A DNA stretch of 64,000 bases from Isurus oxyrinchus (Eukaryota). Position 1 is the first letter of the stretch. Every line of letters starts with the position of its first letter. A model generated the notes under the pieces. It did not search any database, was not told the origin of the DNA, and worked only from the letters and a program-made list of their open reading frames with translations. The position numbers and the translations under genes were made by a program. Shown piece after piece: positions 18,915-41,300 of the stretch. The stretch is taken from contig JANJGN010000020.1 in NCBI GenBank assembly GCA_026770705.1, forward strand, positions 77,128,001 to 77,192,000, written 5' to 3'.

Positions 18915-20310
18915 ATGAGTCCCCCGTCAGTGTTCAGGAAACTATTGGAGAAAATTCTGAAGGAAAGAATCTACCTTAACTTGGAGAGAGAAGGCTGTAT
19001 AAGAGATATTCAGCATGGATCTTTCAGAGGTAGGTCATGCCTAAAAAATTTGACTGAATTTTTGAGGAGTTGACCAGGTGTGTAGATGATGGTCGTGCAG
19101 TTGATGTAGTTTATATGGATTTCAGAAAAGCCTTTGATAAGGTCCCACATGGCAGCCTTATAAATAAGGCAAATGCGCAAGGGATACAGGGTAATTTGAT
19201 AAGGTGGATTATAACTTAGCTTAGTTGTAGGAGACAGAGTGTGATGACAGAAGGCTGTTTTAGTGACTGAAAACCAGAGTCCAGTGGTGTACCACAGGGA
19301 TCTGTGCCAGGTCCCCTATTATTTGTTATTTATATAAACGACATAGATGACTATGTGGGGAATAGTATTAGTAAGATTGTGAATGACACAAAGATTGCCT
19401 GGTTGGTTTACAGTGAGGTTGAGAATCTTGAGCTGGAGGAAGATATTGGCGTTGTGGTCAAATGGGCAAATAAGTGGCAGATGGAATTTAACCCTGAAAA
19501 GCATGAGGTTATACACTTTGGAAGGAGTAATTTGACAAGGAAGTATTCAATGAATGGCATGGCATTAGGAAGTTCTAAGGAACAAAATGACCTTGGTACA
19601 TGTGTCCATAAGTCTCTGAAGGCTGAGGGGCATGTTAGTGGGGTGGTGAAGAAGGCATTTGGGACACTAGCCTTTATCAAACGAGGCACAGATTGCAAAA
19701 GTAGAGGGGTCATGTTGGAATTGTATACAACCTTGGTGAGACCACAGCTGGAGTGCTGTGTGCAGTTTTGATCGCCAAATGATAGGAAGGATGTGATTGC
19801 GCTAGAGGCGGTGTAGAGGAGGTACACCTGGATGCTGCCTGGGATGAAACAATTAAGTTATAAAGAGAGGTTGGATAGACTTGGGTTATTTTCGGTGAAA
19901 CAGAGAAGATTGAGGGGCGACCAGTTCAAGGCGTACAATATTGTGAGGGGTATGGACGGGGTGGATAGGGAGCAGCTGTTCCCCTTCGTCGAAGGCTCAG
20001 TCACGAGGGAACACAAGTTCAAGGTGAGGGACAGGAAGTTTCGGGAGGATGTGAGGGGAAACCTTTTTTACCCAGGTGTTGGTGACTGTCTTGAAAGCAA
20101 TGCCTGGGAGAGTGGTGGAGGCTGGTTGCCTCACATCCTTTATAAAGTACCTGGATGAATACTTGGCACGTCCTAACATTCATGGTTGTGGGCCGAGTGC
20201 TGGTCAATGGGATTAGTTAGGTAGGTCAGGTGTTTCTCATGTGTCAGTGCAGACTCGATGGGCCGATGTGCCTCTTCTGCACTGTGCGATCCTGTGGTTC
20301 TGTGACTACT
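18915..20310 (+). mobile_element. CR1 LINE 3' part (RT domain plus 3' UTR)
   Basis: YMDFRKAFDKVPH, GVPQGSVPGPLLFVIYINDID and LVRPQLECCVQF motifs, followed by a repeat-like 3' tail. Confidence 0.92.
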
Positions 20311-20389
20311 TATTAAACTCTCCATGAAGTGATTGTCATGAGTCTAAACAGCAGAATCAAGTCTCTAAATTCGCTGACCTATCAAAAAT

Positions 20390-20960
20390 TGAAGTGAATG
20401 ACCGACTCCCTTCTCGCCCAAACATTGTTTTAATCATTTTCTTATCTGAGTGAACGTACTTGAATTTGAAGGAATGAGACAACTGGCAATATGCTTCTTC
20501 GCCGATGGTGCAGGTGAACGATTTCATACCTGTGGGAACATTTCAATAAATCTCCAGCTGGGGTGGGCAAACGAATTCCTTTCTATGGTCCAGGTATTTC
20601 CAACGTTTCCTTCCATAGAGTACGTCCTGTGTCTTCCCAGGTTGGGTAATCCGTTGAAACCTATTCCACAGACAGAAGAGTTGCAGGTTCTCTCCACATT
20701 CCAAATGCTGCAACTTCAGTTGTAATTCTGTGTAAGTGATTGCAGATCTTTGGATAGTCATTGCATTGGAACACTCCCAGTTGGGTGCGTGTTTTATTTT
20801 GCTTCCAGCAACACGGGCATTTGAAATCAAATTCCACTGATTGTATTGGGAAATATTGCTCCTTTTTTGTTTTAGTTTCTGTTCTCCATTCACGGGATCC
20901 CCTCTCGCTGTCGACTGAAGGAATTCCTTTTGGATGGTTTCAGTTTTGCAATTACCCAAT
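20390..20960 (-). pseudogene. Decayed C2H2 zinc-finger gene fragment
   Basis: Minus strand gives KRWKYLDHRKEFVCPPQLEIY, then PTGMKSFTCTIGEEAYCQLSHSFKFKYVHSDKK. These are degenerate KPWKC..CGKGF..PSQL..H...HTGERPFTC repeats. Confidence 0.6.
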
Positions 20961-21194
20961 AGCCTTTGAGTTCCTCTCCTGAAGATGTTGACTCAGAGGA
21001 AAAGCAGGATACATACAGCTGCTCGAATATTTCCTATAATTCACTTAGTTCATGGGTATTCTAAATATAACTTGCATCTACCCACCTTAGTTTTATTCTC
21101 TTCCAATGGTTTTCCTGAAAGTAGTCAATTTATCTCATTTTTGCATATTCGATTGACTCCGATTCTCTTTGAAGCTTTAGGAGAAAATGGTCAA

Positions 21195-21700
21195 GGGGCA
21201 TGGTAACATAATAATTATTTTAATGGACTAAAACACGAAATCTATTTTATTGATTCGGGACATAATTTAAGATCCCACATCGGTGGCTAAAATAGTTGAA
21301 TTAAGTTCTCTACATGCAGCTGAAATTAAGAAGGCAAAGAAAAAGAAAAATGGCACATCACGAATAATGACCATGAAAGTATATTCTTATCAAGAAGGAA
21401 AAAAATGCGTTCTGTTTCATTAATGCATCTTAATGGAAGGATTGTGCTTTAGTTCCCCTGCTTGGCGTACATGTGATTCCAGACCCATGGAGATGTACCT
21501 AAGTGTTAACTGTTGTCTGAAATGGTCGAGCAAGCCGCTATGAAACAAAAAAAGAAAAGTAACAGTGTGAGGAACACTCGTGATTGTCCCAGGTGCTGGA
21601 AGCTACAAAGGGAAAGCCAGCCCAATCGATCGTGCAAAGCCCTCCTCATTCACATATTGGGACATGACAGCTGACCCACAAACTAGCCAATGGAAAGTCT
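21195..21700 (+). mobile_element. tRNA-derived SINE-like element, decayed
   Basis: GGCATGGTAACATAATAA..AATGGACTAA head and a CATGTGATTCCAGACCCA...GTTAACTG..CTGAAATGG core shared with the other SINE copies. Confidence 0.5.
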
Positions 21701-22419
21701 GACGTTGTCGGACTCGCCGAATCAAACCATTGAGAAAATGTTCCAAACTCTTCAATCACCAGCTCTAGTCATGTGCTTTCCCAATGGCATAATAACAAAA
21801 TGTATCGTAAAATGTGGCACGCTATTTGGCCACAACAGGATGGAACTTTTGTCTTCAAAATCGAAACGGGCTAAATCACAATTAAATTTAGACTATGTTC
21901 AGATATCTCTTTGAGTTTTGCGAAGATCAATTAGATCTCCTGGCTTTGAAGGAAAAAGCTTTGTAATCTTGAATACAACAATATCATTGCAGTAAAAATA
22001 ATACATTGTGCGTTCGTTGGCTAGTAATTATAAAAACGTCAATCTTTCAAATTTGCGCCTATAGTTTTGGAGCCAATGTAGTTTTTAACGGCCAGGCATC
22101 AGCAAGGATACGAAGCAAAACAGAGAATTTCAGTTATTGACCTGATACAGCCATCTTCTTAATTGGGATGATCCATATGGACAACTCGTTTTCAAAGTGG
22201 ACATTATGTCAGTAGTTGAATGTTGCAATTGTGATCGATCTTTGAAAGTAATAATACCAGGCATCCAGTGTAGTTATATTACACATAGACTCCCATGTGG
22301 AAGTGTTTTCATAATTTACATGTCAATTTGAATTTTGTCTGGTTAGCAAATGTCATGTGAATTTTGATTGCTTCCTATAATAGGCTGTGCTATTAAAATC
22401 AGTGATTTGAATTGTTTTT

Positions 22420-22790
22420 TTCTTCTTGATGCTTTCACATGTCATGGATGTCACTGAGCAGGCCATCATTTGTTGCCCAACCCTAATTACCTTTGTCCTG
22501 AGTGGCTTGTAAGGCCATTTCAGAGGGCAGTTAAGAGTCAACCACATTGTTGCGGGACTGGAGTCATCAGTAGGCCAGGCTAGTTAAGTGAACCAGATGA
22601 GTTTTTACAACAAACTGTGATAGTTCCACGGTCACTATTGCTGGGGCTAGTTTCACAATTTCTGATTCATTCAACGAGTTTAAACTCTATCTGATGCCGT
22701 GGTTTGATTTGATCCTCCCTCTCTAAAGTATTAGCCTTGACACCTGGATTATTAGCTTTATGACAGTGCGATGGCGCCACCATCATCCCA
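22420..22790 (-). mobile_element. SINE (shark HE1-like) with LINE-derived tail
   Basis: GGCCATTTCAGAGGGCAGTTAAGAGTCAACCACATTG..GGACTGGAGTCA; the same family occurs at 11800-12125 and 32620-32910. Confidence 0.65.
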
Positions 22791-23654
22791 ATCATATGGA
22801 GAGAAAAACATGCAGAGAAACACAGAGAGTTTAAGAAATCACACATACAATTGCGCTGCTTTAGCTTTCTCTGGGGATACGTATCTCCTTTCAGTTTGAG
22901 ATTCTACTTCAACCAATATATTGGTTTCATTTCTACAATCCAGATATTTGAAGAAAGTTTATTTGAGATATAAACTATTGTATTTCAATTAACCAATTAT
23001 AAGTAACAATAATTCATCGAAATGGATGAAATTATTTTAAAAGCAAGTATAAAAAAATATTCTGCAGTCTCTTTGTCCGCAGTGCTTTAGGCAAACTCGC
23101 AAAATGGTCACAGCCTTCCTTTTCGGGCCTGAAAAGACCTGGGTATATCTCAAATTATTCTGGAAGTCTCAGGTAGCCCAAAATTGGAGCAACAGGTTAA
23201 CAAAAAAAATGCTGTCACGATGCAACGGTGACACTAGTGCTATTGTCCAGCAATCGCTTGAAGACAACAGAACAAGACAAGTTTCTATTCACCAGGCAAT
23301 TGAGTAACGCTGTGTAGGAATTCCACCGCCAGGAAAGTGAGTCAGAGATCCCAGCGATTGGTTGGTCGAGGCAAACAAAATGTCCCTCCACCCGGTTCGT
23401 AATATACAGAACAAAGATCCAACTGATGCAGCCCGCGCTTGAAAAACTCGAATCAAAACTCCAACAATTAGAGACGATTCCACGATTGGTCAGCAGTCGT
23501 TGAGCAGTCTTGAGTGTGCTAATTGCTGCACGCTAGCAAGAACTTCAAGGTGATCCGTCAAGTTGGTCACATGGTTCATTAAAACTTGTAAGTGACAACA
23601 TACATTCATAAACAAGGATTCGATCTCTGCAAGCTAAATTAATTTTCCTTTTTT

Positions 23655-24075
23655 TTTTCAAAATTTGTATCCAGAATTCAGGCTTCGCTGGCTAGGCTAA
23701 CATTTATTGCCAATCACCAATTGTCCTTCGGAAGGTGATGGTGAACCGCGTACTTGAACCGCTGCAATCCATGTGGTGTACAGGCAGTACAGTGCACTTA
23801 GGGAGGAAGTTCAAAGATTTAACCTCCACCACAGTGAAGGAGCGACGATCTGATCGAAGTCTGGATGGTGTGTGGCTTGGAGGAGAACTTGAAGCCGATG
23901 GTGTTCTTATTCATTTCCTGCCCTTGATCTTCCAGGCAGTAGAGATCGTAGGTTGTTAAGATGATGTCTAAGAAGCCTTGATGATTTCCTGAAATGCATC
24001 CTGTACATTGTTCGCAACTGCTCCCTCTTTGCATCGGTGGTGCAGGGACTGATTGTTTGTCGACGGGGTGCTAAT
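23655..24075 (-). mobile_element. Family-B LINE 3' fragment (resumes at about 25245-25290 after the nested CR1)
   Basis: GCTGGCTAGGCTAACATTTATTGCC...GAAGGTGATGGTGAACCG matches the reverse complement of 37900-38310. Confidence 0.75.
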
Positions 24076-24079
24076 AGCT

Positions 24080-25245
24080 AAGTGATAATAAGAAATTGCA
24101 ACAGCAGTAAGCCATTCAGCCGCTCAAGCCTGCCCTGCCATTCAATGATATCATGGCTGATCTGCCCCAAGCCTCAACTCCTCTGTACTGCCAGCTCTTC
24201 ATGAAGCTCAACTCATGATATTTCAAAAATCTATCCATCTCTTTTTAAATACCTTCAGAGATCAAGCTTCCACAACTCTCTGGGGTAGAGAATTCCAGAC
24301 ATTCAATACTCTCAGAGAGAAGATATTCCTTCGCAACCCAGTTTTGTAGGAGTGGCTCCTTATTATTTAACTGTGTCCCCTAGCTCGAGAGCCAACATTT
24401 TCTCAACATCTACCTGCCAAGGAACCCCTCCCCTCAGGATTCTGTTCATCTCAATAAGATCATCCCTCATTCTTCTAAATGTTAATAAATAAAGTCCTAA
24501 TCTCTTCAGCCGTTCCTGATAAATCAACTCCTTCATCCCAGGAATCAGCCTAACTAATCCTCTTTGAACAGCATCTGATGCCTGTATATAATTTCTTAAA
24601 TACGGGAGCTGAAACTGTACATAGCACTCCAGTTGGGGCCCCAACGAAGCCTGCACATTTGTAACAAGGCCTCCCTATTTTTAAAAATGTAACCCCCTAG
24701 CAACAAAATCCAAAATGCCATTTGCCTTCTTAATTACATGTTAACGTTTTGTGTTTCGTACATAGGAACAATCAGATCCTGCACGTTTTTGGAGTCTTTC
24801 TACATTTTAATAATAGTCTGCCTTTTGATTCTTCCTACAAAAGTGAATGACCTCGCACTTTCCTACATTAAACTCCATCTGCCAAGTGTTTTTTCTCACT
24901 CACTCAACCTATCCACAACCCCTTTTATATTCCTTATGTCCTTTCAAAACATGTCTTCTCACATGTTTTTTCTCATATTGTTGTATCATCAGCAAATTTG
25001 GATACATCACACTCTGGCCGCTCCTCCAAGTCATCGCAATAGATAATAAATAGTTGAGGCGCTAGGAGGTATACTTGTGGCACTCCATTTGTTGAGTCTT
25101 TCCAATGCGTCTGAAAAGGACCCATTAATCCAGACTCTTTGTCTCCTCTCTGTTATCCAATCCTCAGTCCATACCACTACATTTCTCCCAATACCATGAG
25201 CTCTTAACTTGTGCAATAACCTTTTACATGGCACCATATCGAATG
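24080..25245 (-). mobile_element. CR1 LINE 3' part nested in the family-B element
   Basis: ORFs FDMVPCKRLLHKLRAHGIG and GPQLECYVQFQLPYLR...LKRLGLY, plus a CR1 3' UTR. Confidence 0.88.
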
Positions 25246-26479
25246 TGCCAGTCAAGCGCGTTGCTTTGTCCTGGATAGTGCTGAGGTTCTAAACGGTAGC
25301 TTTACTTTTGAGTTGCCCAAAATCATGGGAAGCTAACGGCTGTCCATTGCTTTCTCCATGGCTGCGCTCAGCCAATCAGCTTCGAGTTCCTGTGATCGTT
25401 TGAAATTCGGGATTCATGATGAGTGCAAGATAATAAGCTTCCAGAACCTATCGCTCATTTTCAGCAATACATGGAATTTTGTACTACCAAGCAACAAGTT
25501 GTAACAGATGTTCCTCATCCCTGTCATCATTTCGAAAGCTATAAAATCCTTGCAAAATGTTCTTCTCAGAACTGGCCTCAAATGCTCCAGCAACTTTCTT
25601 GTGTTTTTATCCTAGGTTGCTACTTATAGAATCAAGCCTCCTTGTATGCCGATTTATAAACATATGGAACATCTATTTTGCTCCTGCAATCCCATTACAA
25701 TCATATCCTTTAATCGAGTTTGCTTATCCTTATTCTCCATTCGAAGATGATTCACTTGACAGATAGCTACATTAAAGTTAAGCTGCCAACTTGTATGCCC
25801 ATGTTATAAATCTGTCCATGGCTTTTGGAAGTTCAGCACCCTCGTCACAATGGTTTGCAATATTTCCAAGTTTTGTCACATCTGTAAGATTTGAAATTAT
25901 CTCACGTACACTCAAGTCAAAGCCATTATACATATCCAGAAAAAGGGTGTTGACACCAACTCCTGGCGAAATCTTCCTCCAATTTGAAACATTATTTGAC
26001 TCGTCAGCTCACTTTTTAAGAATACCGATGTAAGGGGAAAACAACAATTTATACTGCATGTGAAGACAGTGCTGATTGTTTGGCAAGTGGACTCCAGCAG
26101 AGGAATTGTCATGGAGAATGCACCAATTATGGCGACTGAAAGTTAACTACTAAACTTTGTTTGAAATTTTAACTAGTCAGCTTGGCCTTGATTAGTCAAA
26201 ACATTGCCTTGAGGACTGAGTCAGCGAATGGCTGTCGCTTATTGCATTTAGCTGAACCAGGCACAATGTGTGTGCATGTCATTTCTGCTTGCAAAGAACG
26301 GGGTCCTTTGCATTAATATATGCAGCGTCCATTACATGCAAATGCGCCACTCTGCAAGTGCAACTGATAATCTAAATTGGTTGTCAGCGTTATTGTTAGT
26401 GCAATTAATTATATTTAGCAAATGTTCTCGAGTTCCAGAATCGCATAAAATGTTGAACACTGTTATTTGAGGTTTACCA

Positions 26480-27200
26480 GCACGGTCTGTTTGGATATGT
26501 TCTGTACTTTGCCCGTTTCGAGGTTCAGCGAGCATAAAGATTTGCTTGATTTACGCCATTTAGAAACATTGCATTTCCCTTTCTTACTGCCAAATTGCAC
26601 GACTTCACATTTCTGCACTTGGTGCTTTGATAGAATGTCCATCTGTGGCCCACTACCTTAACCTTTCGACATCAATTTTCAGCCTCCTTGCGTTCTCCTC
26701 ACAGTTTGCACCCGCACCTAGCCTTGAATCGTCAGCAACTCAGTTATTTTCCAGGTCTTTTCCTAAGTGATTAATGAAAATTGTAGCTGAGGCCATCATT
26801 GGAAGTTGTGGCACTCCACTGGTGAGAGCCTGCCAGCCTGAAAGTGCCCGGTAAACCATATTATTTGCTTATTGAACATTGACCGATCTTCTACCCGTGC
26901 TAATGTATTCGCTTCAAACCCATGAGTTATCATCTTATGAACTAACCTTTGTGTGGAATCTTGATGGATTTAAGTTCCAAATCCAAGTGTATTACATCAA
27001 ATGGTGTCAAAATGTGTCAAATACAATGTCACTATCATAAACCATGAAGATCTTCTCCAATCATAGCATAAATTTATTAATGAATTATTGAGAATTCTTA
27101 ACAATCGATTTCCACAGTTCCTGGCGACCGAGGAAAGGCTCATTGTACTTCTGGTCTACTTGTGGCATTTTTTTTACCATTCCTCTCTGTTGAAGTGCAA
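26480..27200 (-). mobile_element. Old CR1 RT fragment
   Basis: Reverse complement of ADDSRLG and GVPQ-type motifs (GAATCGTCAGCAAC, TGTGGCACTCCACT). Confidence 0.55.
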
Positions 27201-29337
27201 ATACTGTCTGTCTCTCCAATTCCAAATATCTTCCTGCAGCTTATCTTTTTCAGGTTTTGCAGTCGACCATCTTCAACAACTTTGATACCTCCGCAAATTC
27301 GGCCATTGTTCTTGTGTCTTCGAGCTTCGGGTCACTATTAACGGCATTAAAAAAAAAGGTTCAAATAAGGAGAGTCTAGGAGATCCACTTTAGGCCAAAT
27401 CATCTCTGTATCCATGCCGTATAGGCACAATGCATCAACATGCTAGTAACCCCTTGTGAAATATATCCACCGATTCAAGCAACTGATTCCTAGAAGAACT
27501 ACGTGCAAGGACTGAAAAAGCCAAGTGTATCGCATCCATTAAATCGATCCTACCTGGTGAAGTTGAATGGTACAGACTCCGTTTCATGAGCATATATCCA
27601 CTATATATTGACATTACTTTGCATCCATCTGTTCCATGGCTTTATATGCAGCAACGGTTGCTCAGGAGTACACACTCTGAACATCACCTCAATACTTTGT
27701 ACTTTTCTGGATCAAATTTGCATCTGCTTTTCTGGAGCACCAACCACTCTTTAATGGTCAGGACTTTCTCTTTGATTTGTGTGCGGCACCCTGCAATGTG
27801 CTTACGTATTTGAATAAGGAAGCTCGATTAAAGTTAACTGGCCACTTAGATCGACGAATCAGAATTGAATTTTGGACAGCTGTTCATCAACCATGTTGAT
27901 CGCAATGTGACCTGAGTCACAACGACTCTCTGACACACTCTAAAAAAGTCACTTTTTTATCCATTAAATGCATGGAGGTGTTTTAAATATCTGCAAGAAT
28001 TTTGCCTATTCCCACTTCTCTACTACCTATAAAAGTATGTATTTCTGAGTCCCAATTATTGATCATTGAAAATTTGTCTGTCTCAATATCCCACTCCAAT
28101 AACATGAAAAAAACCACAATATTAATTTATTGCGCTCTCTTCGGAGACTGTTTATATATGCAGGTGGAAATGCTGGACACATTTGGTCGACTGGATAACA
28201 TCTCTGGATTGAGAACAAAAAAACAGGTAACCGTTTCAGCTATCAACGGAACTGCAAAGTGCTGGGGGTGTTTTATGAACGTGCTGATTGGACGCTCAGT
28301 CAACATGCGTGGATTATTCAGTAGACATATTCGTGAAAAATTTTTCTTGAACATTTAATCAGTTGAAATTTCCCAATCATCTGCAAATGTTGCGGCATTT
28401 ATCTCAATGGGCATTCCTTGATTTGTGAAGCATTACCATTCTGGATGACCTCATGTGTTTCTGATATTCTTGTATTTGGTCACATTCATCCTTAGCGTTA
28501 GCAAAACCTCAACCCTTCCTAAGTTAGCGTGGTACGCAATTTTTTTATACTATACTTCTCAGCACTGAGATCTGCTCATTCAAGTCCATGGTGGAAAATG
28601 GTGGCTAAAGTTGCTATCCCCATGGATTATTGCTGCTACTTGGCACCCGTAGTAATAACTATATTCAATTCCTGCTCTCTGTATTTCTTCTCTGTTAGCT
28701 GTATTTTGGTAGTAGAGGTTAAAAAACCACTGGGAATATCTGGACGTTTTAAATAAGTTATTCATGGTGATCTGTATATGTACAAGCTGAACACGTGGTA
28801 GAAGCAGATAATATTTCTTCCAAAAATGAATCACTATTCAGAAAGGAAAATAAATTACTATGAGAAGGAGCATTGGAACCGGACAAATGGAATAGCACTT
28901 TCAGGAAAAGGAATATTGGGTATACTGGCCTCCATCTGTGCAGTGCAATGCTATGCTTTGTTATCCATTCAGCTACCGCAAAATTGGAATAAAATGTTAG
29001 TAATTTTATCCTCAATTAAACAAACGGCAAAAAAATGGTAGGCAAACGTGCACAAGTCAAAAAAGCAACGGCATAAACGTAACAAAAGACACTGGATGCT
29101 GAAGACCTGAATGTTCTGATGAAATGGCGTCGACGTGAAACCTTGGCTTTCCATCTTTCTCCTCGTGAGTGTTATCTGTTTCTATCTAATAACAGGTACT
29201 TTCATATGGATAAATTCCAGCTTCATTCCGACATCGCATCATTTTAATGTATTACATGATTTGTTGTCGTTATTTATTTTTTTTGCTGAGATTAATTGAG
29301 GTTCCCATTGGCCAACCCCTCGGTAATATCCGTGTAG

Positions 29338-29615
29338 ATTCAACAGACCGCATCTGGATTGAAGTCTATGAGGACGATAACGGAACATCTGGACAACAGC
29401 TCCAACATTCATCGTCCTGTTCTTCCTGAGCATCTTCGACAGCGCTGCTGTCACACTGGTAAAGGTGAGAAGATTTCAATCCACTAACACTACAATCTGA
29501 CAGAAGCGGTTTGAAAACGTTCTCAATATTATAACAGTTAAAAACTATAATATAAATGCACCAGATCATAAATATCTGCCTTCATTATTTTCTGCCTCTT
29601 TTACAGTTCAAGTGA
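29338..29615 (+). pseudogene. Immunoglobulin heavy-chain transmembrane exons TM1 (29338-29464) and TM2 (29607-29615), frameshifted; isotype (IgM/IgW/IgNAR) unresolved
   Basis: GTGTAG acceptor, then DSTDRIWIEVYEDDNG-[1-nt deletion]-IWTTAPTFIVLFFLSIFDSAAVTLVK, then a GTGAGA donor. A 142-bp intron ends TTTTACAG and is followed by TTC AAG TGA. This matches the canonical IgH membrane segment W.TASTFIVLF.LS.FYS..VTL.K|VK*. Confidence 0.88.
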
Positions 29616-30657
29616 TCGGTTGAATTTGGGACCCTGTAGCTTTTCCTCAGCTGTTTATTCAGATCTCTGTATTCCAATATAAAATATGTTCTCCTGGTGA
29701 TTCTAAAGGTGAAATGTCTTCACTTTGTGATCCCGAATCTGTAACCAAACCTGTAGCAGTTTTTCCGTTTTCATGCATGAAATGTGCGAGATGATAATGG
29801 TTGTAATGTAATTGTCGCATCTAATTTCCTTGGAGTTAGGATTTGAAATTGTAATTAAGTAACTTTTATCATTCGTTATTCCCCCCTTCCCTTTCATTTG
29901 AGCCACAGTTTTCTCTTTCTGATTTATGTTCCAGTGGTGCATACAATTTAGCAAATCAGAGCGCATGTGGTCTGTTCCCAACGTGACCTCAGGCATTATA
30001 TTCACTTCTGTTAACTTTAAACTAAACTTTGTTGTGAAAATATTCTCTGATACTACAAATAAATCTGGAATGAAAAGTGAACTAACTGTGACTTTGCTGG
30101 ATTACTTTCTCCAAGGCTCATCGACACTGCTCCATTTTCACTATTACACATTTCTCCCTGTTTTACCAGTCCTGTCTGGGGTTTGTTTGCACCCAAGGCT
30201 CCACTGGACCCAAGACTCCATCCGTGTGAGGAGACCTTTACCTCTGCCTGTTTCTGGCAATTGCCCGAGGCGGAATGACTGAACAGGGAGGGTCACCTCG
30301 GTGATTTCACTCTGGGGTGGTGCAGTCACATGTCTGGCAATTCCAAACTGTAGGGTTCCGGCTTCATCTGAGGCTGATATAGGATAGTGAATTGGAGCAG
30401 AAAACTTCCTTTAAAGTACCCCATCAAACACTCCCACTGTTGGTGCAATCAGGGTCAGAAAAAGGGTAAAGATCCCTCTGCATTGTCCCATTAAACACTT
30501 TGAAGTGGGGGATGCCACAGGCTAGATATATAACACAGGCAGAATATGGAGCACAAACCAAAGGAGTTTTCCAGTGGCTGGGGCGTATCTGGCACTGATA
30601 TATTATTAAGTACAAATCCTGCCAATTATTACAGAGCTTTAGGTCTATTGGACATCC

Positions 30658-30720
30658 GGTGGGGGGGGGGGGGGGGGGGGGGGGGGGGGTGCGGGGGGGG
30701 GGGGGGGGGGGGGTGGGGGG
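30658..30720 (+). repeat. Poly-G tract
   Basis: About 60 nt of almost pure G. Confidence 0.95.
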
Positions 30721-31074
30721 TCAAAACCGTGAAAATACTCAAAGATGGGGTCCAACGTTATGCTGCAAGTTACCATAAACATGGGACTTGTTCACAGATC
30801 CTGGGGCCCGATCGGATACTGAGACACTAGCTTCCCATTTTCTCTTAAATACACAAACAGACGTAGTCTGCATCTTGCTCTGCCCCACCTCTTTCCGTTT
30901 AGCATTACACGGTCCTTATTCCGGTAAACACAGGCCGACTCTCCACTTCCACCTTTCTGTTAAATCCATTAGTGCTGTCATTCTCCCCTTCTGCATTGAT
31001 AATGAACTGTATTCCTGATCAGCTCATTCCTACTGATACCATATCGCTGAACTCGCTGAACATCTCCCCAGGGG

Positions 31075-31290
31075 TAAACACAGAAATAGCTGGAACTATC
31101 AGCGGGTCTGATAGAATCTGTGGAGGCAGAAACGAAGTGGTCTTCTCGAGTCGTTATGACCCTTCATCAGATGGACTCGAAACGTGAACTCTGTTTCTCT
31201 CCCCCTCAGATGCTGTCAGGCCTGCTGAGTTTTTTCCAGCAATTTTTGTTTTTGTTTCAGATTTCCAGCAATCGCAATATTTTGCATTTA
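31075..31290. mobile_element. Palindromic Penelope-associated hairpin element
   Basis: 31075-31152 is the inverse of 31174-31252 (...GAGTC / GACTCGAAACG...CCAGCAATTTTTG). TTCATCAG in the loop is the reverse complement of CTGATGAA. Confidence 0.75.
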
Positions 31291-31627
31291 TAACTCCAAG
31301 GATTTCATTCTACCTGCTTCATCGTTTCATCAGAGCATCCTTCAGAGCCTCCCGATCATGGAATATCAGCAGAAGTTTCTCTTCATATCCTACTATCTTC
31401 CAATATTTTCCATCTGAAACTGAGCCACTTTTCTCTAATGCCCCAGAGTTCAGGCGTGAGGTTCCTTGTTGTTTGAATATAGGAAGGGTTCGGCAGAGAA
31501 AAAATACCTACACATCTTCAAGACTCGGAATGATATTTATGAATGAGTGGAGTTAATGCTTAAACCCTTTCTATCTCCCAATCTCTCTCCTTCCTCTCCT
31601 GCAATGCCATTCAGGACATCTGAATAA

Positions 31628-31866
31628 ATGACAGAAAATGTTGTAAAAACTCAACGGTCCTTAATGCATCTGTGGAAAAAACGATAGAGTTAACGTTTCG
31701 AGCCCACATGATTCTACTTCGGAGTCTTCTTATCTGAAAGAAAGTCTTATAGGCTCGAAACGTTAATGCCATCTTTCTCTCCAACGGTGCTCTTGGAGCT
31801 GCTGTGTTTTTCGAGCATGTTCTGTTTTAGTTTTAGATTTCCAGAAACTGCTATATTTGCTTTTAC
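31628..31866. mobile_element. Second palindromic Penelope-associated hairpin element
   Basis: GTTAACGTTTCGAGCC at about 31690 is the inverse of GGCTCGAAACGTTAA at about 31752; the arms match the 31075 element. Confidence 0.72.
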
Positions 31867-31919
31867 CGTTCAGGACTTCCCTCCGCTGTTGGCTGCATTT
31901 TTCATAACTGCCGCTGTTG

Positions 31920-32320
31920 CGCATGGGATTGGGGATGGTGTATTGAGATGGATAGAAAACTGGCTGGCAGACAGGAAATAAAGAGTAGGAATAAACTGGT
32001 ATTTTTCTGAATGGCAGGCAGTGACTAGTGTGGTACTGCAGTGATCGGTGCTGGGACTACAGCTAGTCACAATATATATTAATGTATTAGATGCGGGAGC
32101 TAAATGTAATACCTCCAAATTTGCAGATGACACAAAGCAGGGTGGGAGGGTGAGCTGTGAGGAGGATGCAGAGATGCTTCAATGTGATTTGGACAAGCTG
32201 AGTGGGCAAATGCATGGCAGATGCAATATAATGTGGAAAGAACAGTAAGGCAGATTATTATCTGAATAGCTATAAATTGACAGAGGGGAATGTGCAATGT
32301 GACCTGGGTATCCTTATTGT
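31920..32320 (+). mobile_element. CR1 RT fragment
   Basis: HGIGDGVLRWIENWLADRK and SKFADDTK motifs. Confidence 0.85.
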
Positions 32321-32619
32321 TTCAGCAGAATGGATGTGTGCGTGAATCAATTGTAGCTGCTGGAGCAGCTGAACAACTGCTTCCCAGTAAAAACAGACAA
32401 TTAGAGTTTTGGCGAAACCATTCTTTCTTCTGTTGTTCGTCCAGCACTGTAAACATCATCCCAGGCATTCTCTGCTATGCCCCGGCCCCCGTGCACATCC
32501 CCACGGGAGATCCTGGCGTATTGGTAATGTCACGATGCGGTTAACTAAAAATGCAGGCTCCCGCTCTAGCACAAATGTTCAAACCCCGTTACAGCAACTG
32601 GCTGAATTTCCGTCAGAAA

Positions 32620-32915
32620 ATCAGGAATTGAAACCCCTTCAGGAATGGGAAGGATTTCATTCTAAATATGAAATCTCTGGTAATCTCCCGGAATTTCCCA
32701 CATTCTGGCTGCTCCACGTGATTCCAGAATCACAGCAATGTGGCTGGTCCTGAAATAGTCTGGACACCGTGAGTTATATCAAACCGCTGCAGACAAGCCA
32801 AACCAGATGGACAACTTCTCTTCAAGAACGTCCCCACCAACAAATTCTCCAGGGAAATGAGGGATGGCAATAAACATTGGCTTTGTCTGCAATGCTTCCT
32901 TCAAATAAACAATGC
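32620..32915 (+). mobile_element. SINE fragment with family-B tail
   Basis: CACGTGATTCCAGAATCACAGCAATGTGGCTG...GGGATGGCAATAAACATTGGC. Confidence 0.55.
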
Positions 32916-32924
32916 AAAACAAAA

Positions 32925-33950
32925 TCCAAACCTATCGCATTGGAACAGGTGTATACCAATCAGCCCATCGAACCTGTCCCACCTTTCATTGCGATCATGG
33001 ATGATCATCTACTTGAACATCTTTTTCCCACACTATCCCCCATACCTTTTCTATCTTTGGTATTTAGAATTCTGCCGTTCCCTGCTTGAAACATGCTCAA
33101 TGATTGAACTTCCACAGCTCTCTGGGATGCAGAATGCAAACATTCGCAAACCTCTGAGTAAAAAAGCAATTCTCCTCATGTCAGTCCTAGTGGTTTTACC
33201 ATTATTTTGAAATTGTGTACCCTGGTTCTAGATTCCCCAACGAGGGGAAACATGAGACCTGCATTTACACTTTCTTCCATTCAGGTGTTTTGATTGTGTT
33301 AATTAGATCTTTTTGCTCATTTTTCGAAACTCTGGAGAATACAGGTCCAATGTCCCCAATCCTTCTTCACAGGAGAGTCACGCCATCCCTGATGCAAGGT
33401 CTGGTGAGCCTTCGATTCACTCGCTCAATGACAACTGCAACCCTTCCAAAGGAAAGGGGGCCAAACCTGCATATTGTACCCCAGGGGCGGCCTAACCAAG
33501 ATAAATGAAACGAGTCTTCACTACTGCTGTATTCAAATCCTCTTGTGGGAAAACCTAATTTTCTATTCGCCTTCTTAATTGCTTCATATGTATGTCAGGT
33601 TTCAGAGACTTATTGATGAGGGCACCCAGGCCTCCTTGTACAGCTACATTTTCCTGGCTCTCACGTTTTATGAAATAATCTGCACATCCTAACAAATTGG
33701 TTAACCTCGCATTATTCCACGTTAAATTTCATCTTTCCTGTTCTGTCCCCCCTCATTCAGTCTATCCAAATCGCCTGAAACCGGTTTTCAACTTCCCTCA
33801 CAACAAACGTTCCCACCAAGCTTTGTGTCATCCACGAACTTGGAAATATTACACTTGGCGCTCATATTGAAATCATTGATATGTTGTGAACAGCTGGCTC
33901 TGAGGTGGTGATTTCGCAGTAGCCCACTGGCCACATGCTAACAATGTTTG
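32925..33950 (-). mobile_element. CR1 LINE 3' part
   Basis: Reverse CR1 3' UTR and RT (TGTGTCATCCACGAACTTGG is KFVDDT on the minus strand). Confidence 0.8.
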
Positions 33951-33967
33951 ATATTTCACTCTATACT

Positions 33968-34062
33968 TCCTCCCCGCCCCCACCACCCTCCCCCCCGCCC
34001 CCCCGCCCCCCCCCCCCCCCCCCCCCACCACCACCACCACCACCACCCCCACAACAAAAAAA
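33968..34062 (+). repeat. C-rich low-complexity tract with (CCA)n
   Basis: Direct inspection. Confidence 0.9.
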
Positions 34063-34900
34063 CCCTACTTAGGCCGGCCAGCCCACTGACCCCATACCTA
34101 ACACTTTGAAATGACATGCTTCAGTTACTGCTGCAGTAGGAGGAGGCCTTTGGATCACCTAAGAGTGTCACAACACTGATGGAAACTCTTAAAGCTTTAG
34201 TCTGCTTATCTCTACACAAAGGCAGCGAGGGCTGCTGATGATTCCCAGCATTTATGTTTTTAATTTCAGTTCCGAGAACATTGGCCCCCCTCTCTCTCCT
34301 TTCCTGAACATCCTGTTTCCGGCTGGGTTCAGAGTGTCATTTGAATTGACGAATTTCATTGGAACATAATTTGTGCAGTGGAAATAAACCTTTATTTGAA
34401 ACGAGGAGACTTCCCGCTCTGAGGTTCTGGGACTGTTCAGCTCTAAAAACACTGGAATAAAATCACATAAATATTTTGAAAAGCTGAAATCACTGACTTT
34501 CGAACCTTTAAGAACCACCCTCCCATCTGCAGGTTGGTCTGAAATGTTTTGAACAAGGTTTCCCTGGGATACTGGAGACACTGCAGCATGTCCACCCCTG
34601 GACTGTAACCTGCCCGCGTGACCTTACGCTCCAAACCCCCTTTGTGCAATGATATGAATCTCGAGCCTGGTGGGTGGGAATTTCACAAACCATGCCCAAG
34701 GACAACAGGAGAGTTGTAATAGCCTGAAAACCATCAGAACAAACAGGATTTAGGTAAATTGCTTCCCAAACGCACGATTTCTGTTACTCACTGAATCCTG
34801 GCGGTGAAAGATGAAAACCGGCCTCACCCTGTGCTCATCACCGAGGTGAAAAGATTGGGAATAAAACAGGGGCAACTCGTATTGGTAATGGAAATTCTTG

Positions 34901-35800
34901 TCACTGTTGAATAAACTTAACAATTCCAGAAAAGGGGTATTTCACCACATTCTTCAGCTCCTCTCTGAATTTAGTCTGGGTCACTGCATAAATGGCTGTG
35001 TTAGTGCAACAACTCAGGTGCTGAAACATAAATCCCAGTTCCTGCACAAACTTAGGAAGATAGCCACGAATAGCATCTAACAAATATAGCCTATTTCAAA
35101 CAGAATCTATCATAAAAAATTACCCACAACAGGATAAAATTCCCCGACATAGCAAATAATGTAAAATGATGGATTTCCTGCGTTTCTCCATCTCTGGGTC
35201 ACTGGTATTCTCCCCACTACAGTGAGCCCGGATTCTCCTGCGGACTCTGCTCGACACTAACCTATATCTGAAAGTTAAAGTGTTCAACATCAAAATCAAG
35301 ACAAATGGCGCAAATGGTGTTAAAATATAATGAAGACATTCGATTGTTGCCCACATTGAAGAAAATTCAGCATCCGTCACTAATGTGCAAAACCAAGCAG
35401 CGTTGGAAACCAATATTGACCTTCATACATAAAGTACCAGACAGTGTCCTTCACACAGAATAGCAGACTCACTGTTCCGAGAACCACAGCCGCCATACGC
35501 TCGGTGCAATATTTTGTTTTCAACTTCTGAGAACAAATAGCCAGAAATCTATCAAAGATGAGACTGTGAACCAGACAGAACAATCTGTGGCAGCATAAAG
35601 CAGGACTGCATGGATATTACACACTTTCATCCTCCACATGAACTGAAACTGAGCCCAGTAACGAATAGCAAATTGCCTGAATATGATATCAAGGATAACG
35701 ACCAGTAGTTCCACAGTTGCCATGGACACCAGTTAAAGGGAAACACATTTGGAGAGACTGCACCCTCCCCGAGTCAGGGTCAGAATAGTCATCATGTTCA
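34901..35800 (-). pseudogene. GPR139-like GPCR pseudogene (divergent subfamily), exon 2
   Basis: TTCCTTACAG acceptor, then VNMMTILTLTRGGCSLSKCVSL*LVSMATVELLVVILD; VCNIHAVLLYAATDCSVWFTV; FDRFLAICSQKLKTKYCTERMAAVV; LTPFAPFVLILMLN; GENTSDPEMEKRRKSII; LSCCTNTAIYAVTQTKFREELKNVVKYPF. One stop and several frameshifts; exon 1 not located. Confidence 0.92.
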
Positions 35801-36544
35801 CTGTAAGGAAGAGAAAGACAGGAAAGTTAGTGTTTAACTTAGAGCATCTGTTACAGACAGATAGAGTTACATTTGAACAGAGTTATCCAAGGTCAGAATC
35901 TAATTACTTTACCACTGTTTGAGCTTTACCCTGGAGGGAGTATTTCGAGTTAAACATCATCCTGTTGTAGCAGGAAACCAAATCCTGCAGCAGGTCCCAC
36001 CGCCACTTCCCTACATTATTCATGGAGTTCGGAGTGAAAATCACTCACCCCATTACTAGTCCTGCTCAATATCACATGAACATGCTGCAAACTGCATCAC
36101 AACGATACGTAGGATGGGCTGTGATTTGTACTGAAGGAAAATGTTTCATTGTTATTTGACAAGACATTTGAGTGGAACATTAATGTTGTGTAAAGGAGTA
36201 AGTACAGATTTGAATTCAGAAATTGTCTTTCAAATTAGGATGTCCAAATCTGCCTTCCTGATAATTATTGCCTTCGCCAAAAGGCACAATGAATCCTTAG
36301 ATTGTATCCCAGTAACAAACAGACTCTCGAAAAGAACTAAAGAACAGGGAGGTAAATGGATCGCTAAACTGAAGAAAATAAATTAGAGATTGAATCAGAG
36401 CTGAATATTGGCCAACAGGAAGGAACAGCGGAGAGTGACAGCATCCAAAATTCAGGCTGGCTAGCAGGAAAGAATTTACCAATGCATCGAATGTCTGTGT
36501 TGTGGGCCAGGAATTAAATGGGCAAATGGTTGGGAATTGAGGTT

Positions 36545-37035
36545 GTTACATGAGAATGCAAGAACTAGGAGCCAGAGGAAGCCATACTTCCCTGTGGCCA
36601 AATCTAATGTTCACTAAGCCCATGGCCGTTCTTCGACTTCTACCTTCCAAAACTATCCCCATTTACCTTGATGGCCTTAGAGCACAAAGATCTATCGACC
36701 AACAGGCCTCGAGAATTGATAATTCCAAAGATTCTCCACTTTCTGAGTGAAGAAGATTCTCCTCATCTCAATTCCAAATGGCCGACATCTTATCTCAGAG
36801 ATCGAGTTCTGGACTCCCCACCTAAGGGAAACATTCTGTCAGCATTTATCCAATGAGGACACTAAATGATTTTCTATGAGATAATCCTGTGTCCTCTAAT
36901 TTTAAGAAGATACACGTCTAATTTGATTGATTGATTCGTTAAGTATATTTTTCCTTGGGCAAGGAGGCCAAAACTGTACACATTAATCCATATGTTTTCT
37001 CACTAATCACATGCATAATTCTATCAACGGTTCCT
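36545..37035 (-). mobile_element. CR1 3' fragment
   Basis: Reverse CR1 3' UTR (AGAATGCAAGAACTAGGAGC...GAAGAAGATTCTCCTCATCTC). Confidence 0.7.
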
Positions 37036-37089
37036 TACTCGAATACAGGGAACACTGCCATTTATTATCCTATTCATTTACTATATTGC

Positions 37090-38320
37090 TGTATCCAAAC
37101 CTCATTACAACCTTGATTCAAACATGGAAAAAAGATCTGAACTCCCGGGGGGAGGTGAGAGCGGCTGCCCTTGACATCAAGGCAAAATTTGGAAAAGTGT
37201 GGCATCAAGGGTTCCTAGCAAACCTGGAGTCAATAGGAATCAGGAGGGAAATCTCTGCTGCTTCGAACCATACTGAGCAGAAAGGAAGATGGTTGTGTTT
37301 GTTTAGGGTCGGTCATCTCAGCTCTAGGACTTAACTGCAGGATTCCTTCAGGGTTCTGTCCTCAGCCCAACCATGTTCAGCTGTTTCATCAATGACCTTC
37401 CTTCCAATCTAAAATCAGAAGTGGGATGTTCGCTGATGATTTCACAATGTTCAGCACCATTTACGACTTCTCAGGTACTGAAGTAGCCCATGCTCAAATG
37501 CAGCAAGAGCTGGAGAATTACCAGGCTTGCGCTGACATGTGGCAAGTAACTTGCCCACCACTCAAGTGTCAGGCATTGACCATCTCCAACAAGGGAGAAC
37601 CCAACCATCGCCCTTTGTCATTCAATGGCATTAACATCAATGAATCCTCCACTATCAAATCCTGGGGTTTACCATTGACCAGAAACGGAACTGAAAGAGT
37701 TATATAAATACTATGGCTACAAGAGCAGGTTAGAGTTTGGAATAGTGCGACGCATAACTCACCTCCTGACTCACCAAATCCTGTCCACCATCTGCAAGGC
37801 ACAAGTCAGGAGTGTGGTGGAATTCTCCTCACTTGCTTGGATACGAGTAGCTGCCAGAACGCTCAAGAAGCTTGACACTATTCAGGGCAATGCACCTCGC
37901 TGGATTGGCAGCACACCCAAAAATATTCACACACTCCACCACTGTTGCATAGTAGCAGCAGTGTGTGCCATCTACAAGATGCACTGCAGGAACTCACCAA
38001 GGCTCCTTCGGCTGCACGTTCAAAACCACGACTGCTATTATCTAGAAGGAGAAGGGCAGCAGGCAGATGTGAACACCACCAAAAGGAAGTTCCCCTCCAA
38101 GTCACTCACCATCATGACTTGGAAATATATAGCTGTTCCTTCACTGTCACTGGGCCAAAATCCTGGAATTCCCTTCAGAACAGCACTCTGGGTGCATGTA
38201 CACCTCGAAGACTGTAGCAATTCAAGAAGGCAGCTCAGCACCACCTTCACAAGGGCAACTAGTGATGGGTAAGAAATGCTGGCCCAGCCAACGAAGCCCA
38301 TTTCCCATGAATGTATAATA
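37090..38320 (+). mobile_element. Family-B CR1/L2-clade LINE, RT domain to 3' end
   Basis: LITTLIQTWKKDLNSRGEVRAAALDIK.KF.KVWH, PSGFCP/QGSVLSP region, MFADD and KAQVRSVVEFSS motifs; A-rich tail. Confidence 0.88.
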
Positions 38321-41300
38321 ATAAAACATATTGCATGTTCGCTTTCTCTAGTCTGTGTACCCGAGCACCCAAACTGAAAATTTACAATGTTTACTAGTTT
38401 CTTCCCTGTTGAAATGCTGGATGAGGGTAGAAGGAAACTCGTCTTTGTTATTATCTCAGGGAATCTGAAGGTTCTCGTGCAATATTAAGACAGGGCAGTG
38501 ATGCGTGTGTAAATTAATACATGAGATAATTCATAAAATTAATGGTCCTGGCCTCCCATTTGGTGGTGATAATGGGTTGATCAGCTCTGATTGTAAATAT
38601 AATTAAAGCCCTATCTTTTTCCACCCTTGCAGCTTGTTTTTCTTCCCTATGTAGTGGGGTGGGGGAGATGAGGTGTGTATGAGGTGCATAGATACCGGGG
38701 TGGTTAGTAATTGGGTTGGGGATGGGTGAGTAGTTAACGTGCTTTGCAGTCGGTTGGGTGTTGAATGGACGGGCGATGGCGAGTGAGAGCTGTGCAAGTG
38801 GATCGAGGGGAAGGCAATCGAGTCAGATTAGCTATTCTGGGGTCAGTAGTTGGGGGTGCTGTGCGTTGTTGTATGTGTGCGCTAAATGTGGGAGATCTGT
38901 ATGGGTAGGGGTTGGCCGTGCATGGGCTGAGCTCGACAGTTACTTGCTGACACATGCTAGAAATTAACAGCGGGAAATTACTAGGGCAAGCATCTGGGTA
39001 AGTATCATACAACATGCACAAGGGTCCATAACTGAAGTCAGTGTCGGAGTCATTGTTAGAGGGTCCTGGGAAGTACAAATCTGTCAATCAGAAGTTTAAA
39101 TTTCGCGATTAATTACCGTGCATGCTCCTGGATCAGCATTTTGGATGGCTCCAGATGTTTAGAGCGGTGGACATTTCAATATTCATTACTGTTGGCAAAG
39201 GGAGCTCTGGTTAATAGTGCAGTCAGTATCAAATTCACAGCAACGGACTCCAGACACCAGCTTCAGATAAAGGGAAATTGCACAAGAGGGAAATGCAGAT
39301 CAGGTCAAAAAAGGCAGGTTTAAGGGGAATAACAAAAAAACATTTTAAGAATTAACTTAAAGGATGATAAGTTTGTAGCGAGGACAACAGATTTTGGAGG
39401 AGATTCAGAACATGAAAGCCTTAATTTTTCACTGTGGTCTCCCATGCCAAAGGCTGCAGACATGCCCAGAAAAGGAAGGAGAGGCAGCTTAACATCAGCA
39501 GAGTCACATAAGATATCATTTGTGCCTTTGCTAAGGACGGTGTAAGAGTTTTAATAAGGGAGAAAAATGGTTAGAAAGATTTAAGCATGGAGTCCCTTGG
39601 AAGTGGGGCAGAAACGTGGGGGGTAGCAGCTGGTGCAAGGAATTTGTAGAGGAAAGAGAGGTTAGAGATAGCATGTTTGCTTACAAGGACTGAGGCATCA
39701 TGGGTTGTTTATTTACAAGGGCACGGGTGGAACTATTAACTATATCAGCAAATGCGGAAGATGGTGAGGAAGTTCGGTGTTCAGTAGTATGGTGGGAGTA
39801 TGATGGAATCGCCACCAGCAGCCCCCCCGCACACCCGCCTCCCCCACCCACCGCCCACACGCCCTTCCCTCCCAGCCTCCACTTTGCAGTGCATTTCTCT
39901 GCAGTGGGCCCGCGAGCCATTGAAATCTACATTCACATCGGAGGGACCCGGAAATCCTGCTGGAGCGAGGGATTGGAAAATTGCGGCCTAATTGCGACTT
40001 ACTGGACTGAGCAGAGCCTGAGGTGATGGCTGCATCAGGGAGAATGCTAAGGGTGAGAAAGGAACGTAATGTAAAGGATATCAAAGATGGAGATAAAGAA
40101 ATGAGTTAGCAGATTGGAGCCTGTAGAAATGCCTCAGTGAGGGGGAGGGTTAACATCCAAACCGCTTGTAATTTGGAACTGGGAGCAGCTGCTCCCACTG
40201 CTCCCTAGTTACCCTGATGGTGACACAGACAATCTTCCAGACAGGGAACACGGTTACCTCAACTTATTCTATCAACTGGCAAAACCCAACAAGCTATCAG
40301 TAAATTGATTGAGGAGCTTTAGGTAGTGCCATAAATATTATCTATTCGCCAATATCCTGATCACCAATACTCCGTTTGCGCTATACCTGAAACATCCCGA
40401 TGGAAAAACACATCATTGTCCAGATGCAGACACAATTTCATTGGGAGCTACCAGAAATTCAAAGCCTGATTCCCACCAAACCAATCAAAACCTGGAAATC
40501 TCGCACCTGAAATATGATGAAACTCTCACTATTCATCAGGATGGTAAAGGAAGCAACACACAATAAGCACAAGCATCCTCCAGATTGGAATATATGCTCC
40601 ATCAGTGATCGTCCATCATTAAACTCGATATTTCACCGACTCCTCCTCTGTGGATGCAGGAAGAATGTCGATAGAATCAACTGCAAAAAACACCGAGGCT
40701 CCTTCGACAGCATGCTCTGGCACAGCAACATGCAGAAGGGGTGCAATGCTGCGAGGTTCACCAGCACTAACGCACCACCCTGACTTGATCTAATTTTCTG
40801 TGAGATCTAATGATTGCTGTTTATGCTGGGGACCACTATACTCTGTCAAACACTGATATACACAGTGAAAACATTGCCGAGATATAGGCAGAGGAGATTC
40901 TCCGGTGATTTGACTAAACAATACACTGACTGACATTAATTACAGTCTCTTAACAAACAAGATGCTTTAACCCTTCCATTCCATCAGATTGTGTGGAAAG
41001 AATACAATAAAAACAACGTGGCATGCCGGTCAAGATAATTCATTCAAAACAAACACTTTACGTCAACCACTGTTGTGAAAAACAGATTATGGAATCCTGC
41101 AGGCTTGCAGCACAGATGAAAAATAAATAGGTTCAGATCCAGAGTTCTGCATATTTCGTAGATAAACTCCTGCCCAACAATTTCACGTTTTCAATTCATT
41201 TCTCAGAGAATGAACTTAACACAAGTCCCAGGGAATGGTCAGAAGCAGTAACAGTCCAAAAGGATTTATGGTTGATGATCATCTAGTGATCAGAACGAAA

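What the first reader, a model, noticed from the sequence alone, without database searches (positions are those of the whole stretch)
29338..29615. Orphan immunoglobulin heavy-chain membrane exons inside the GPCR cluster
Seen: a spliceable TM1+TM2 pair missed by the ORF track because a 1-nt deletion (GGA-AC) splits it. Splice signals are intact, the conserved FYS tyrosine is changed to Asp (GAC), and the tail is FK* rather than VK*. Known: sharks have multicluster IgH loci (IgM, IgW, IgNAR) and these exons encode the BCR anchor. Inference: this is the relic 3' end of an IgH cluster or a dispersed orphon, physically linking IgH loci with the expanded GPCR family. I saw no V segment, RSS or intact CH exon in the window.
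Basis: partly seen in the sequence, partly recalled or inferred. Interest (0 to 1): 0.7.

Follow-up and report, generated by a model that had tools for sequence, protein, structure and literature searches.

The report
Shark IgM tail relic, 33 copies
This is the cut-off membrane-anchor end of a shark antibody (IgM) gene, present in 33 related copies that all lack the rest of the gene; it was likely carried along passively when a neighbouring block of receptor genes was multiplied, and is probably dead DNA rather than a new kind of antibody anchor.

Summary
The TM1+TM2 pair is real and IgM-derived. TM1 (29338-29464) is 1 nt shorter than in 29 of 29 nearest paralogues; splice sites are canonical. 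The Tyr-to-Asp change is not private decay: it marks one clade of 33 copies sharing a non-Ig upstream flank. None of 33 has a CH4 exon within 8 kb upstream, against 88 of 97 Tyr copies. The Asp exon varies like its flanks (3 disabling events seen, 3.5 expected if neutral), whereas IgM controls are conserved. A GPR139-like gene 19-34 kb upstream of 31 of 33 copies is under purifying selection (3 seen, 23 expected). Spliced contigs from one sample of a related organism carry only Tyr. So this is a headless IgM tail hitchhiking in a ~55-kb amplified receptor block, 58 kb behind a disabled IgM cluster. The deletion is unverified and may be a consensus error. The main IgM array shows no GPCR motif. 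The scan noted such relics before on other DNA of this genome. A weak residual signal (omega 0.48, p=0.07) leaves a small chance of function.

The parts
29338..29464 (+). IgM TM1 exon relic, 127 nt (1 nt short), Asp-type clade
29382..29384 (+). Site of the 1-nt deletion, in a short G run in most paralogues; unverified by reads
29438..29440 (+). GAC (Asp) in place of the Tyr of the YS motif; founder change of the 33-copy clade
29465..29606 (+). TM1-TM2 intron, 142 nt, GT..AG (140 or 147 nt in the 29 paralogues)
29607..29615 (+). TM2 coding part, FK* (IK* in functional clusters)
29319..29337 (+). Only ~19 nt left of the CH4-TM intron, with the acceptor; homology to IgM clusters starts here
29616..31119 (+). 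3' UTR and downstream flank homologous to intact IgM clusters (83-86%), running into a high-copy repeat
28960..29318 (.). Non-Ig founder flank; 28960-29316 occurs 33 times in the genome, each time beside an Asp-type TM1
34904..35864 (-). Broken GPR139-like receptor gene, nearest to the relic (5.3 kb downstream); part of the amplified block
17700..18032 (+). 5' fragment of a GPR139-like gene; the paralogous blocks hold a full-length, also broken, copy here
2699..3652 (-). Broken GPR139-like gene in the block
1..39848 (.). Window part of the amplified block, collinear at 87-92% with C38:4.18-4.23 Mb and with an inverted copy 66 kb away on C20; the block extends ~19 kb before the window start

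Best explanation
The two exons are the membrane-anchor end of a shark IgM gene that has no V or constant exons in front of it and occurs in 33 related copies; it is likely a non-functional passenger that was multiplied with a block of GPR139-like receptor genes. Shown: IgM origin; loss of all but ~19 nt of the upstream intron; one shared junction and the Tyr-to-Asp change in all 33 copies; no CH4 near any copy; exon variability equal to flanks; a receptor gene of the block under purifying selection. Inferred: one rearrangement cut the tail from an IgM cluster of the C38-type lineage, the founder acquired Asp, and repeated segmental duplication of a block of about 55 kb spread it; selection on the intact receptor is the likely reason the block is kept. 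The 1-nt deletion and the FK* tail are late and private to this copy, or (deletion) a consensus error; neither is needed to explain the loss of function.
For: IgM: sister clade of TMs lying 5.3-5.8 kb behind CH4 of V-D-D-J-CH1-4 clusters; that CH4 is 91% identical to Triakis IgM and 87% to nurse-shark mu. One founder: Asp clade monophyletic, FastTree support 1.0, 33 of 66 rows; upstream flank found 33 times, always beside the exon. Headless: CH4 within 8 kb upstream for 0 of 33 Asp copies against 88 of 97 Tyr copies; no V or CH in 130 kb around the C38 copy L002. Neutral: exon p-distance 0.060 against flank median 0.054, 13 of 19 flank windows as conserved or more; in two Tyr control sets (14 copies each) 0 of 19 flank windows are; disabling events 3 seen, 3.5 expected. 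Driver: one GPCR paralogue lies upstream on the other strand of 33 of 33 copies (19-34 kb in 31), 27 of 30 fetched copies open over 909 nt, omega 0.47, p 1e-9, 3 disabling events against 22.8 expected. Expression: in two presumed RNA runs of one sample of a related organism, cover is confined to the exons except for one contig, with CH4-TM1 and TM1-TM2 junctions, and all depth at 29438 reads T (Tyr): 207.8 of 207.8 and 19.5 of 19.5; a DNA run shows the G form (24.5 of 626.2).
Against: 30 of 33 copies keep an open TM1, and GT/AG sites are kept in all 33 as far as printed. Codon-model omega of the 30 open copies is 0.475, the same value as the selected GPCR (0.465) and near the Tyr controls (0.37); it is not significantly below 1 (p 0.069) but the exon is short and the test weak. 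First+second positions vary less than third (0.26 vs 0.36 alleles per site). The RNA evidence is contigs from one sample, of a related organism, of unknown tissue; contigs drop rare variants. That selection on the GPCR drove the duplications is inferred, not shown. I looked for non-IgM upstream exons only by motif scan and tblastn with IgM domains.
Confidence: 0.85

Rival explanations
1. The Asp-type exons are a used alternative anchor: reached by long-range splicing, read-through or between-cluster switching, they would give a membrane IgM that would not couple normally to CD79a/b and might pair with another partner through the buried Asp.
For: 30 of 33 open frames and kept splice dinucleotides; omega 0.475 in open copies; the clade is also present in DNA of a related organism; switching between shark clusters is reported (PMC5192425 section 17); the YS motif mediates Ig-alpha/beta association (PMC6304377 passages).
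Against: No CH4 within 58 kb of any of 33 copies; the only near cluster is disabled four ways; exon no more conserved than flanks, with non-conservative changes inside the helix such as T-to-K, S-to-P, S-to-R; no Asp form in RNA contigs; most open copies come from two recent bursts.
Confidence: 0.06
2. This copy's frameshift is an assembly consensus error and the exon is open like 30 of its paralogues (this changes the status of the deletion, not the verdict on function).
For: The copy has 11 private 1-nt indels (10 in homopolymers) per 96 private substitutions against 12 per 438 in the other 32 copies, Fisher p 0.0014; 9 in the 2.2 kb around the exon against 2 and 2 in two paralogues; no contig with the deletion was listed in the runs laid.
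Against: Over the other ~45 kb of the block the window copy has an ordinary 1-nt indel rate (0.022-0.047 per substitution, paralogues 0.024-0.052); it has the longest terminal branch, so real decay is expected; the runs laid are not of this genome (best share of words 0.29).
Confidence: 0.35
3. The exons are a lone orphon inserted into a GPCR cluster by transposition or retroposition.
For: The IgM-derived piece is short (about 1.8 kb) with a sharp 5' junction.
Against: The TM1-TM2 intron and the acceptor are retained; no empty site exists (flank found 33 times, always joined); two further TM relics keeping 0.5 kb and 1.4 kb or more of the intron lie in the same block, the first still attached to a full cluster on C20.
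Confidence: 0.07

Closest known systems
Elasmobranch IgM minicluster membrane exons (horn shark membrane-bound C region P0008; catshark P0001)
   Same: Two-exon TM1/TM2 layout, acidic spacer, W-T-x-x-x-T-F-I-x-L-F-F-L-S core, two-residue TM2; 86% identity to P0001.
   Different: No V, D, J or CH exons upstream; Asp in place of the Tyr kept in 7 of 7 retrieved membrane forms; 33 copies evolving like their flanks.
Shark IgH pseudogene clusters (nurse shark Groups 6-8; PMC2435157 passages, PMC5192425 section 17)
   Same: Dead by-products of a multicluster IgH family.
   Different: Those are described as VH-bearing clusters; these are tail-only and outnumbered 3 to 1 by Tyr copies but amplified as part of a non-Ig block.
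Rabbit IgD remnant (PMC5568218, abstract only)
   Same: Largely intact but non-functional TM exons surviving after loss of upstream constant exons.
   Different: Single locus in a translocon; not amplified.
Mammalian mIgM TM in BCR structures (PDB 8e4c, 8ema, 7xt6, 7wsp, 7xq8)
   Same: Aligns over TM1 residues 11-43.
   Different: The Tyr of the YS motif, implicated in Ig-alpha/beta binding (PMC6304377), is Asp here.

Membership tests
IgH membrane exons (TM1/TM2) | Sequence homology to the mIg transmembrane segment | tested here: met
IgH membrane exons (TM1/TM2) | Phase-1 acceptor, phase-0 donor after Lys, short TM2 ending in a stop | tested here: met
   the same junctions appear in spliced contigs of Tyr paralogues
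IgM (against IgW, IgNAR) | Nearest relatives lie behind four CH exons with a mu-type secretory tail | tested here: met
   IgW and IgNAR TM exons were not placed in the tree
Functional IgM minicluster | V, D, J and CH1-4 directly upstream | tested here: not met
   0 of 33 with CH4 within 8 kb; nearest 58.5 kb; none in window
Functional IgM minicluster | Open TM1 frame | tested here: not met
   127 nt, stop at codon 31 in this copy, unverified by reads; open in 30 of 33 copies
Functional IgM minicluster | YS motif for CD79a/b assembly | tested here: not met
   Asp (32 copies) or Asn (1 copy) at the Tyr position
Functional IgM minicluster | Exon conserved above flanks | tested here: not met
   omega test alone inconclusive (p 0.069)
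Functional IgM minicluster | Spliced transcript | tested here: inconclusive
   Only Tyr forms in contigs of one sample of a related organism; no RNA of this genome was listed
Processed (retroposed) orphon | Intron loss, empty site | tested here: not met
   intron kept; no empty site
GPR139-like class A receptors (neighbours) | 7tm_1 match with GPR139 as nearest solved relative | tested here: met
   PF00001 E 2e-21; best PDB hit GPR139, E 2.8e-7, a weak margin over muscarinic M4 at 2.1e-6; orthology not tested

The most novel reading that the evidence does not exclude
A 33-copy family of IgM anchor exons with a buried Asp in place of the CD79-binding Tyr is a working alternative tail: rearranged IgM genes reach it by long-range splicing or between-cluster switching and make a membrane antibody wired to a different signalling partner, co-amplified with an uncharacterised receptor family.
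Probability: 0.06. Interest if true: 0.8.

Novelty: new member of a known kind. Interest (0 to 1): 0.28.

Why it matters
As it most likely stands it is an Ig pseudogene fragment, a known by-product of shark multicluster IgH loci. Its use is as a marker: a neutral tag that traces about 33 duplications of a ~55-kb block holding a selected GPR139-like receptor, interleaved at megabase scale with one IgM lineage. It also warns that counting TM exons overstates functional IgM clusters here (33 Asp relics and at least 24 copies of a second relic beside 97 Tyr copies). I found no paper describing these relics or the GPCR-IgM neighbourhood (listings only; open-access library). If the Asp exons were spliced, it would be a B-cell receptor form without the conserved CD79 interface, which would surprise specialists.

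Tried and rejected
Read check of the deletion: no RNA holder listed and no run holds more than 0.29 of the words; contigs laid are 90-99% alike and come from a related organism or paralogues, so they cannot settle it. Pfam has no family for the TM exon (0 hits). Protein search with TM1 gave 1 hit among 4 candidates and no annotated Asp form; weak evidence. Branch-wise counting of changes was not done; selection was measured on extant copies only, so recurrent changes are undercounted in the allele tests. Two of 35 pattern matches (C16:98998588, C20:60523247) were dropped unfetched as chance, since neither came up. Three broken copies were left out of the codon model, which biases omega down. 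One search used 100 of 105 CH4 places (5 not listed); 5 of the 9 Tyr misses lie on contigs beyond the listing, no Asp copy does. One search lists 100 of 790 GPCR motif hits, ending at C38:10.29 Mb, and an exact motif misses diverged copies, so distances are upper bounds. GPCR selection used 30 of 39 close copies. Tyr controls were 28 of 97 copies, not picked at random. Use of the window exon by the C20 cluster upstream was considered and rejected because that cluster is disabled. PDB search of the GPCR at E 1e-10 gave nothing. No fold or complex prediction was run: the exon has no ectodomain to fold. The poly(A)-signal offsets printed were mis-computed and not used. PMC12227049 main text has no hit for GPR, GPCR, G protein or pseudogene; its table S1 was not seen and may list these neighbours.

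Full report
Observation. The window is G000:C20:77128001-77192000 in a 4.98-Gb genome. At 29338-29464 lies a 127-nt exon between AG and GT, followed by a 142-nt intron and TTC AAG TGA at 29607-29615. The 29 nearest paralogues fetched all have 128 nt and read DS.D.IWI..YEDDN.NIWT....FI.LFFL.IFDS.AVTLVK; the window copy lacks one base at 29382-29384 and stops at codon 31. The in-frame paralogue L002 is 86% identical to the C-terminus of a catshark V-C-TM protein and aligns with mouse and human mIgM in BCR structures, Asp facing the Tyr of 'FYS'. No V, CH or RSS was found in the window.

Isotype. In a tree of 66 TM regions the window copy falls in a clade of 33 (support 1.0) whose sister group is the Tyr-type TMs of C38-like clusters. 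One such cluster, read in full, has V, two D, J, four C1 exons, a secretory tail and TM 5.3 kb behind CH4. Its CH4 is 91% identical to Triakis IgM and 87% to nurse-shark mu. Contigs from presumed RNA runs of a related organism join the end of CH4 to this acceptor and TM1 to TM2. The piece is IgM-derived. IgW and IgNAR TM exons were not in the tree.

An exact pattern finds 97 Tyr-type copies and 35 Asp/Asn-type matches, of which 33 are this clade (two dropped unfetched). So Asp is a founder change. The usual tail here is IK*, so only I-to-F is private. Homology to IgM clusters starts about 19 nt before the acceptor and runs about 1.8 kb. The 357 nt before that point are not Ig, occur 33 times in the genome and are always joined to the exon: one founding junction, no empty site. 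A CH4 exon lies within 8 kb upstream of 88 of 97 Tyr copies and 0 of 33 Asp copies; the nearest case is the window copy at 58.5 kb (using 100 of 105 CH4 places). Around the C38 copy L002, 130 kb hold three TM relics and no V or CH.

The neighbourhood. Upstream of the window on C20 is an IgM cluster (V 77085.7 kb, CH1-4 77092-77099 kb) that is disabled: a 6.5-kb insertion just before the leader donor, loss of the first D, a frameshift in the secretory tail and a stop in its own TM1. Then come a second relic (77116.3 kb, keeping 0.5 kb of intron) and the window relic. An inverted copy of the block, with an open Asp exon, lies 66 kb away. The block is collinear over roughly 55 kb at 87-95% with C38. 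The second relic has 24 full and 4 partial close copies among 40 scored. The receptors match Pfam 7tm_1 with GPR139 as best but weak PDB hit; all five pieces in the window are broken or partial.

Selection. Among all 33 copies the exon is as variable as its flanks: p-distance 0.060 against a median of 0.054, with 13 of 19 flank windows as conserved or more; in two sets of 14 Tyr copies the exon is more conserved than 19 of 19 flank windows. Three copies are broken (this one, a 25-nt deletion, a stop); 3.5 events are expected at the flank rate. Against this reading, omega of the 30 open copies is 0.475, p 0.069 against 1; Tyr controls give 0.37, p 0.004. The estimate omits the broken copies, and 4 of 9 variable third positions are CpG sites, both of which lower it, but 42 codons give little power and a remnant of constraint is not excluded. 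One GPCR paralogue lies upstream on the opposite strand of 33 of 33 copies (19-34 kb in 31; 79 and 88 kb in two); 27 of 30 fetched are open over 909 nt, omega 0.465, p 1e-9, with 3 disabling events against 22.8 expected. The copy just before the window carries a stop. I infer that the receptor is what selection keeps and the tail is a passenger.

Expression. No RNA run of this genome was listed. In two presumed RNA runs of one sample of a related organism, cover is confined to the exons except for one contig of depth 11.8, and all depth at 29438 reads T, that is Tyr (207.8 of 207.8; 19.5 of 19.5). A DNA run shows the Asp form (24.5 of 626.2) and two contigs running from the clade's own flank into the exon. 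This fits a silent clade that is shared with that organism, but contigs lose rare forms and the tissue is unknown.

Is the deletion real? Unknown. The copy has a local excess of private 1-nt homopolymer indels (11 per 96 substitutions against 12 per 438; p 0.0014), confined to the 2.2 kb around the exon; over the rest of the block the rate is ordinary. I put the chance of a consensus error at about one in three. The verdict does not rest on it.

IgH-GPCR link. The GPCR motif has 790 exact hits (first 100 listed). None falls in C26:24-40 Mb, where 33 CH4 exons lie. In the listed part of C38, 11 of 11 Tyr copies are 89 kb-1.2 Mb from the nearest hit and 5 of 5 Asp copies 5-33 kb (read by hand). 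A few clusters do lie close: the disabled C20 one (7 kb) and a CH4 at C26:6.04 Mb (11 kb). The link is thus regional for one IgM lineage and tight only for the relic block.

Known and new. Shark IgH comes in up to hundreds of miniclusters with pseudogenes among them (PMC5192425, passages and section 17; PMC4279169 and PMC2435157, passages). IgH isotypes are linked near TCR alpha/delta in several elasmobranchs; the main text has no hit for GPCR terms (PMC12227049, abstract, section 6 and term search; table S1 not seen). The YS motif mediates Ig-alpha/beta association (PMC6304377, passages). Surviving TM exons of a dead gene are known from rabbit IgD (PMC5568218, abstract). Rumfelt 2004 on shark TM forms was seen only as a reference entry. 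Six searches (listings only) showed no account of these relics. Earlier notes of this scan report the same kind of relic and an amplified tail-plus-receptor block on other pieces of this genome; they are unchecked notes, and I had seen the block before reading them.

Verdict. A real, IgM-derived, headless tail, one of 33 copies amplified with a receptor block and most likely non-functional (0.85). New member of a known kind; interest 0.28. A working Asp-type anchor remains possible at about 0.06.

Noticed in passing
G000:C20:77085685-77103449 (L061, L058, L057), 25-42 kb before the window: Complete but disabled IgM cluster: insertion near the leader donor, first D lost, secretory tail frameshift, stop in TM1; V and CH1-4 frames open.
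   Followed up: yes
L076 (G000:C38:4550438-4550797) and L061:7685-8044: The V of this IgM lineage looks, from recall only, more like shark IgW V than IgM V (framework 3 'GRIIPS'), although it sits on mu constant exons; not tested.
   Followed up: no
L041:4200-4900 (G000:C38:4183200-4183900) and C20:77116266: A second, older TM relic (Tyr-Gly type) travels in the same block: 24 full and 4 partial close copies.
   Followed up: partly
L042:3545-4501 (-): A GPR139-like paralogue with 39 close copies (93-100%), mostly open and under purifying selection; six sit in inverted pairs around a relic or apart from it.
   Followed up: partly
genome-wide: 790 exact hits of one 26-nt motif of the GPCR family, on many contigs without listed IgM (C18, C21, C27, C29, C33-35).
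   Followed up: no
G000:C26:24-40 Mb: Main IgM array: 33 CH4 exons, CH4-to-TM spacing about 3.2 kb against 5.3-5.8 kb in the C38 lineage; at least 105 CH4 exons in the genome.
   Followed up: partly
window 30655-30722: Long G tract inside the IgM-derived flank; length varies widely among copies and it is absent from Tyr clusters.
   Followed up: no
P0009: A protein filed under Aeromonas veronii is 91% identical to shark IgM CH4, on a 742-nt contig; likely host contamination of that record.
   Followed up: no
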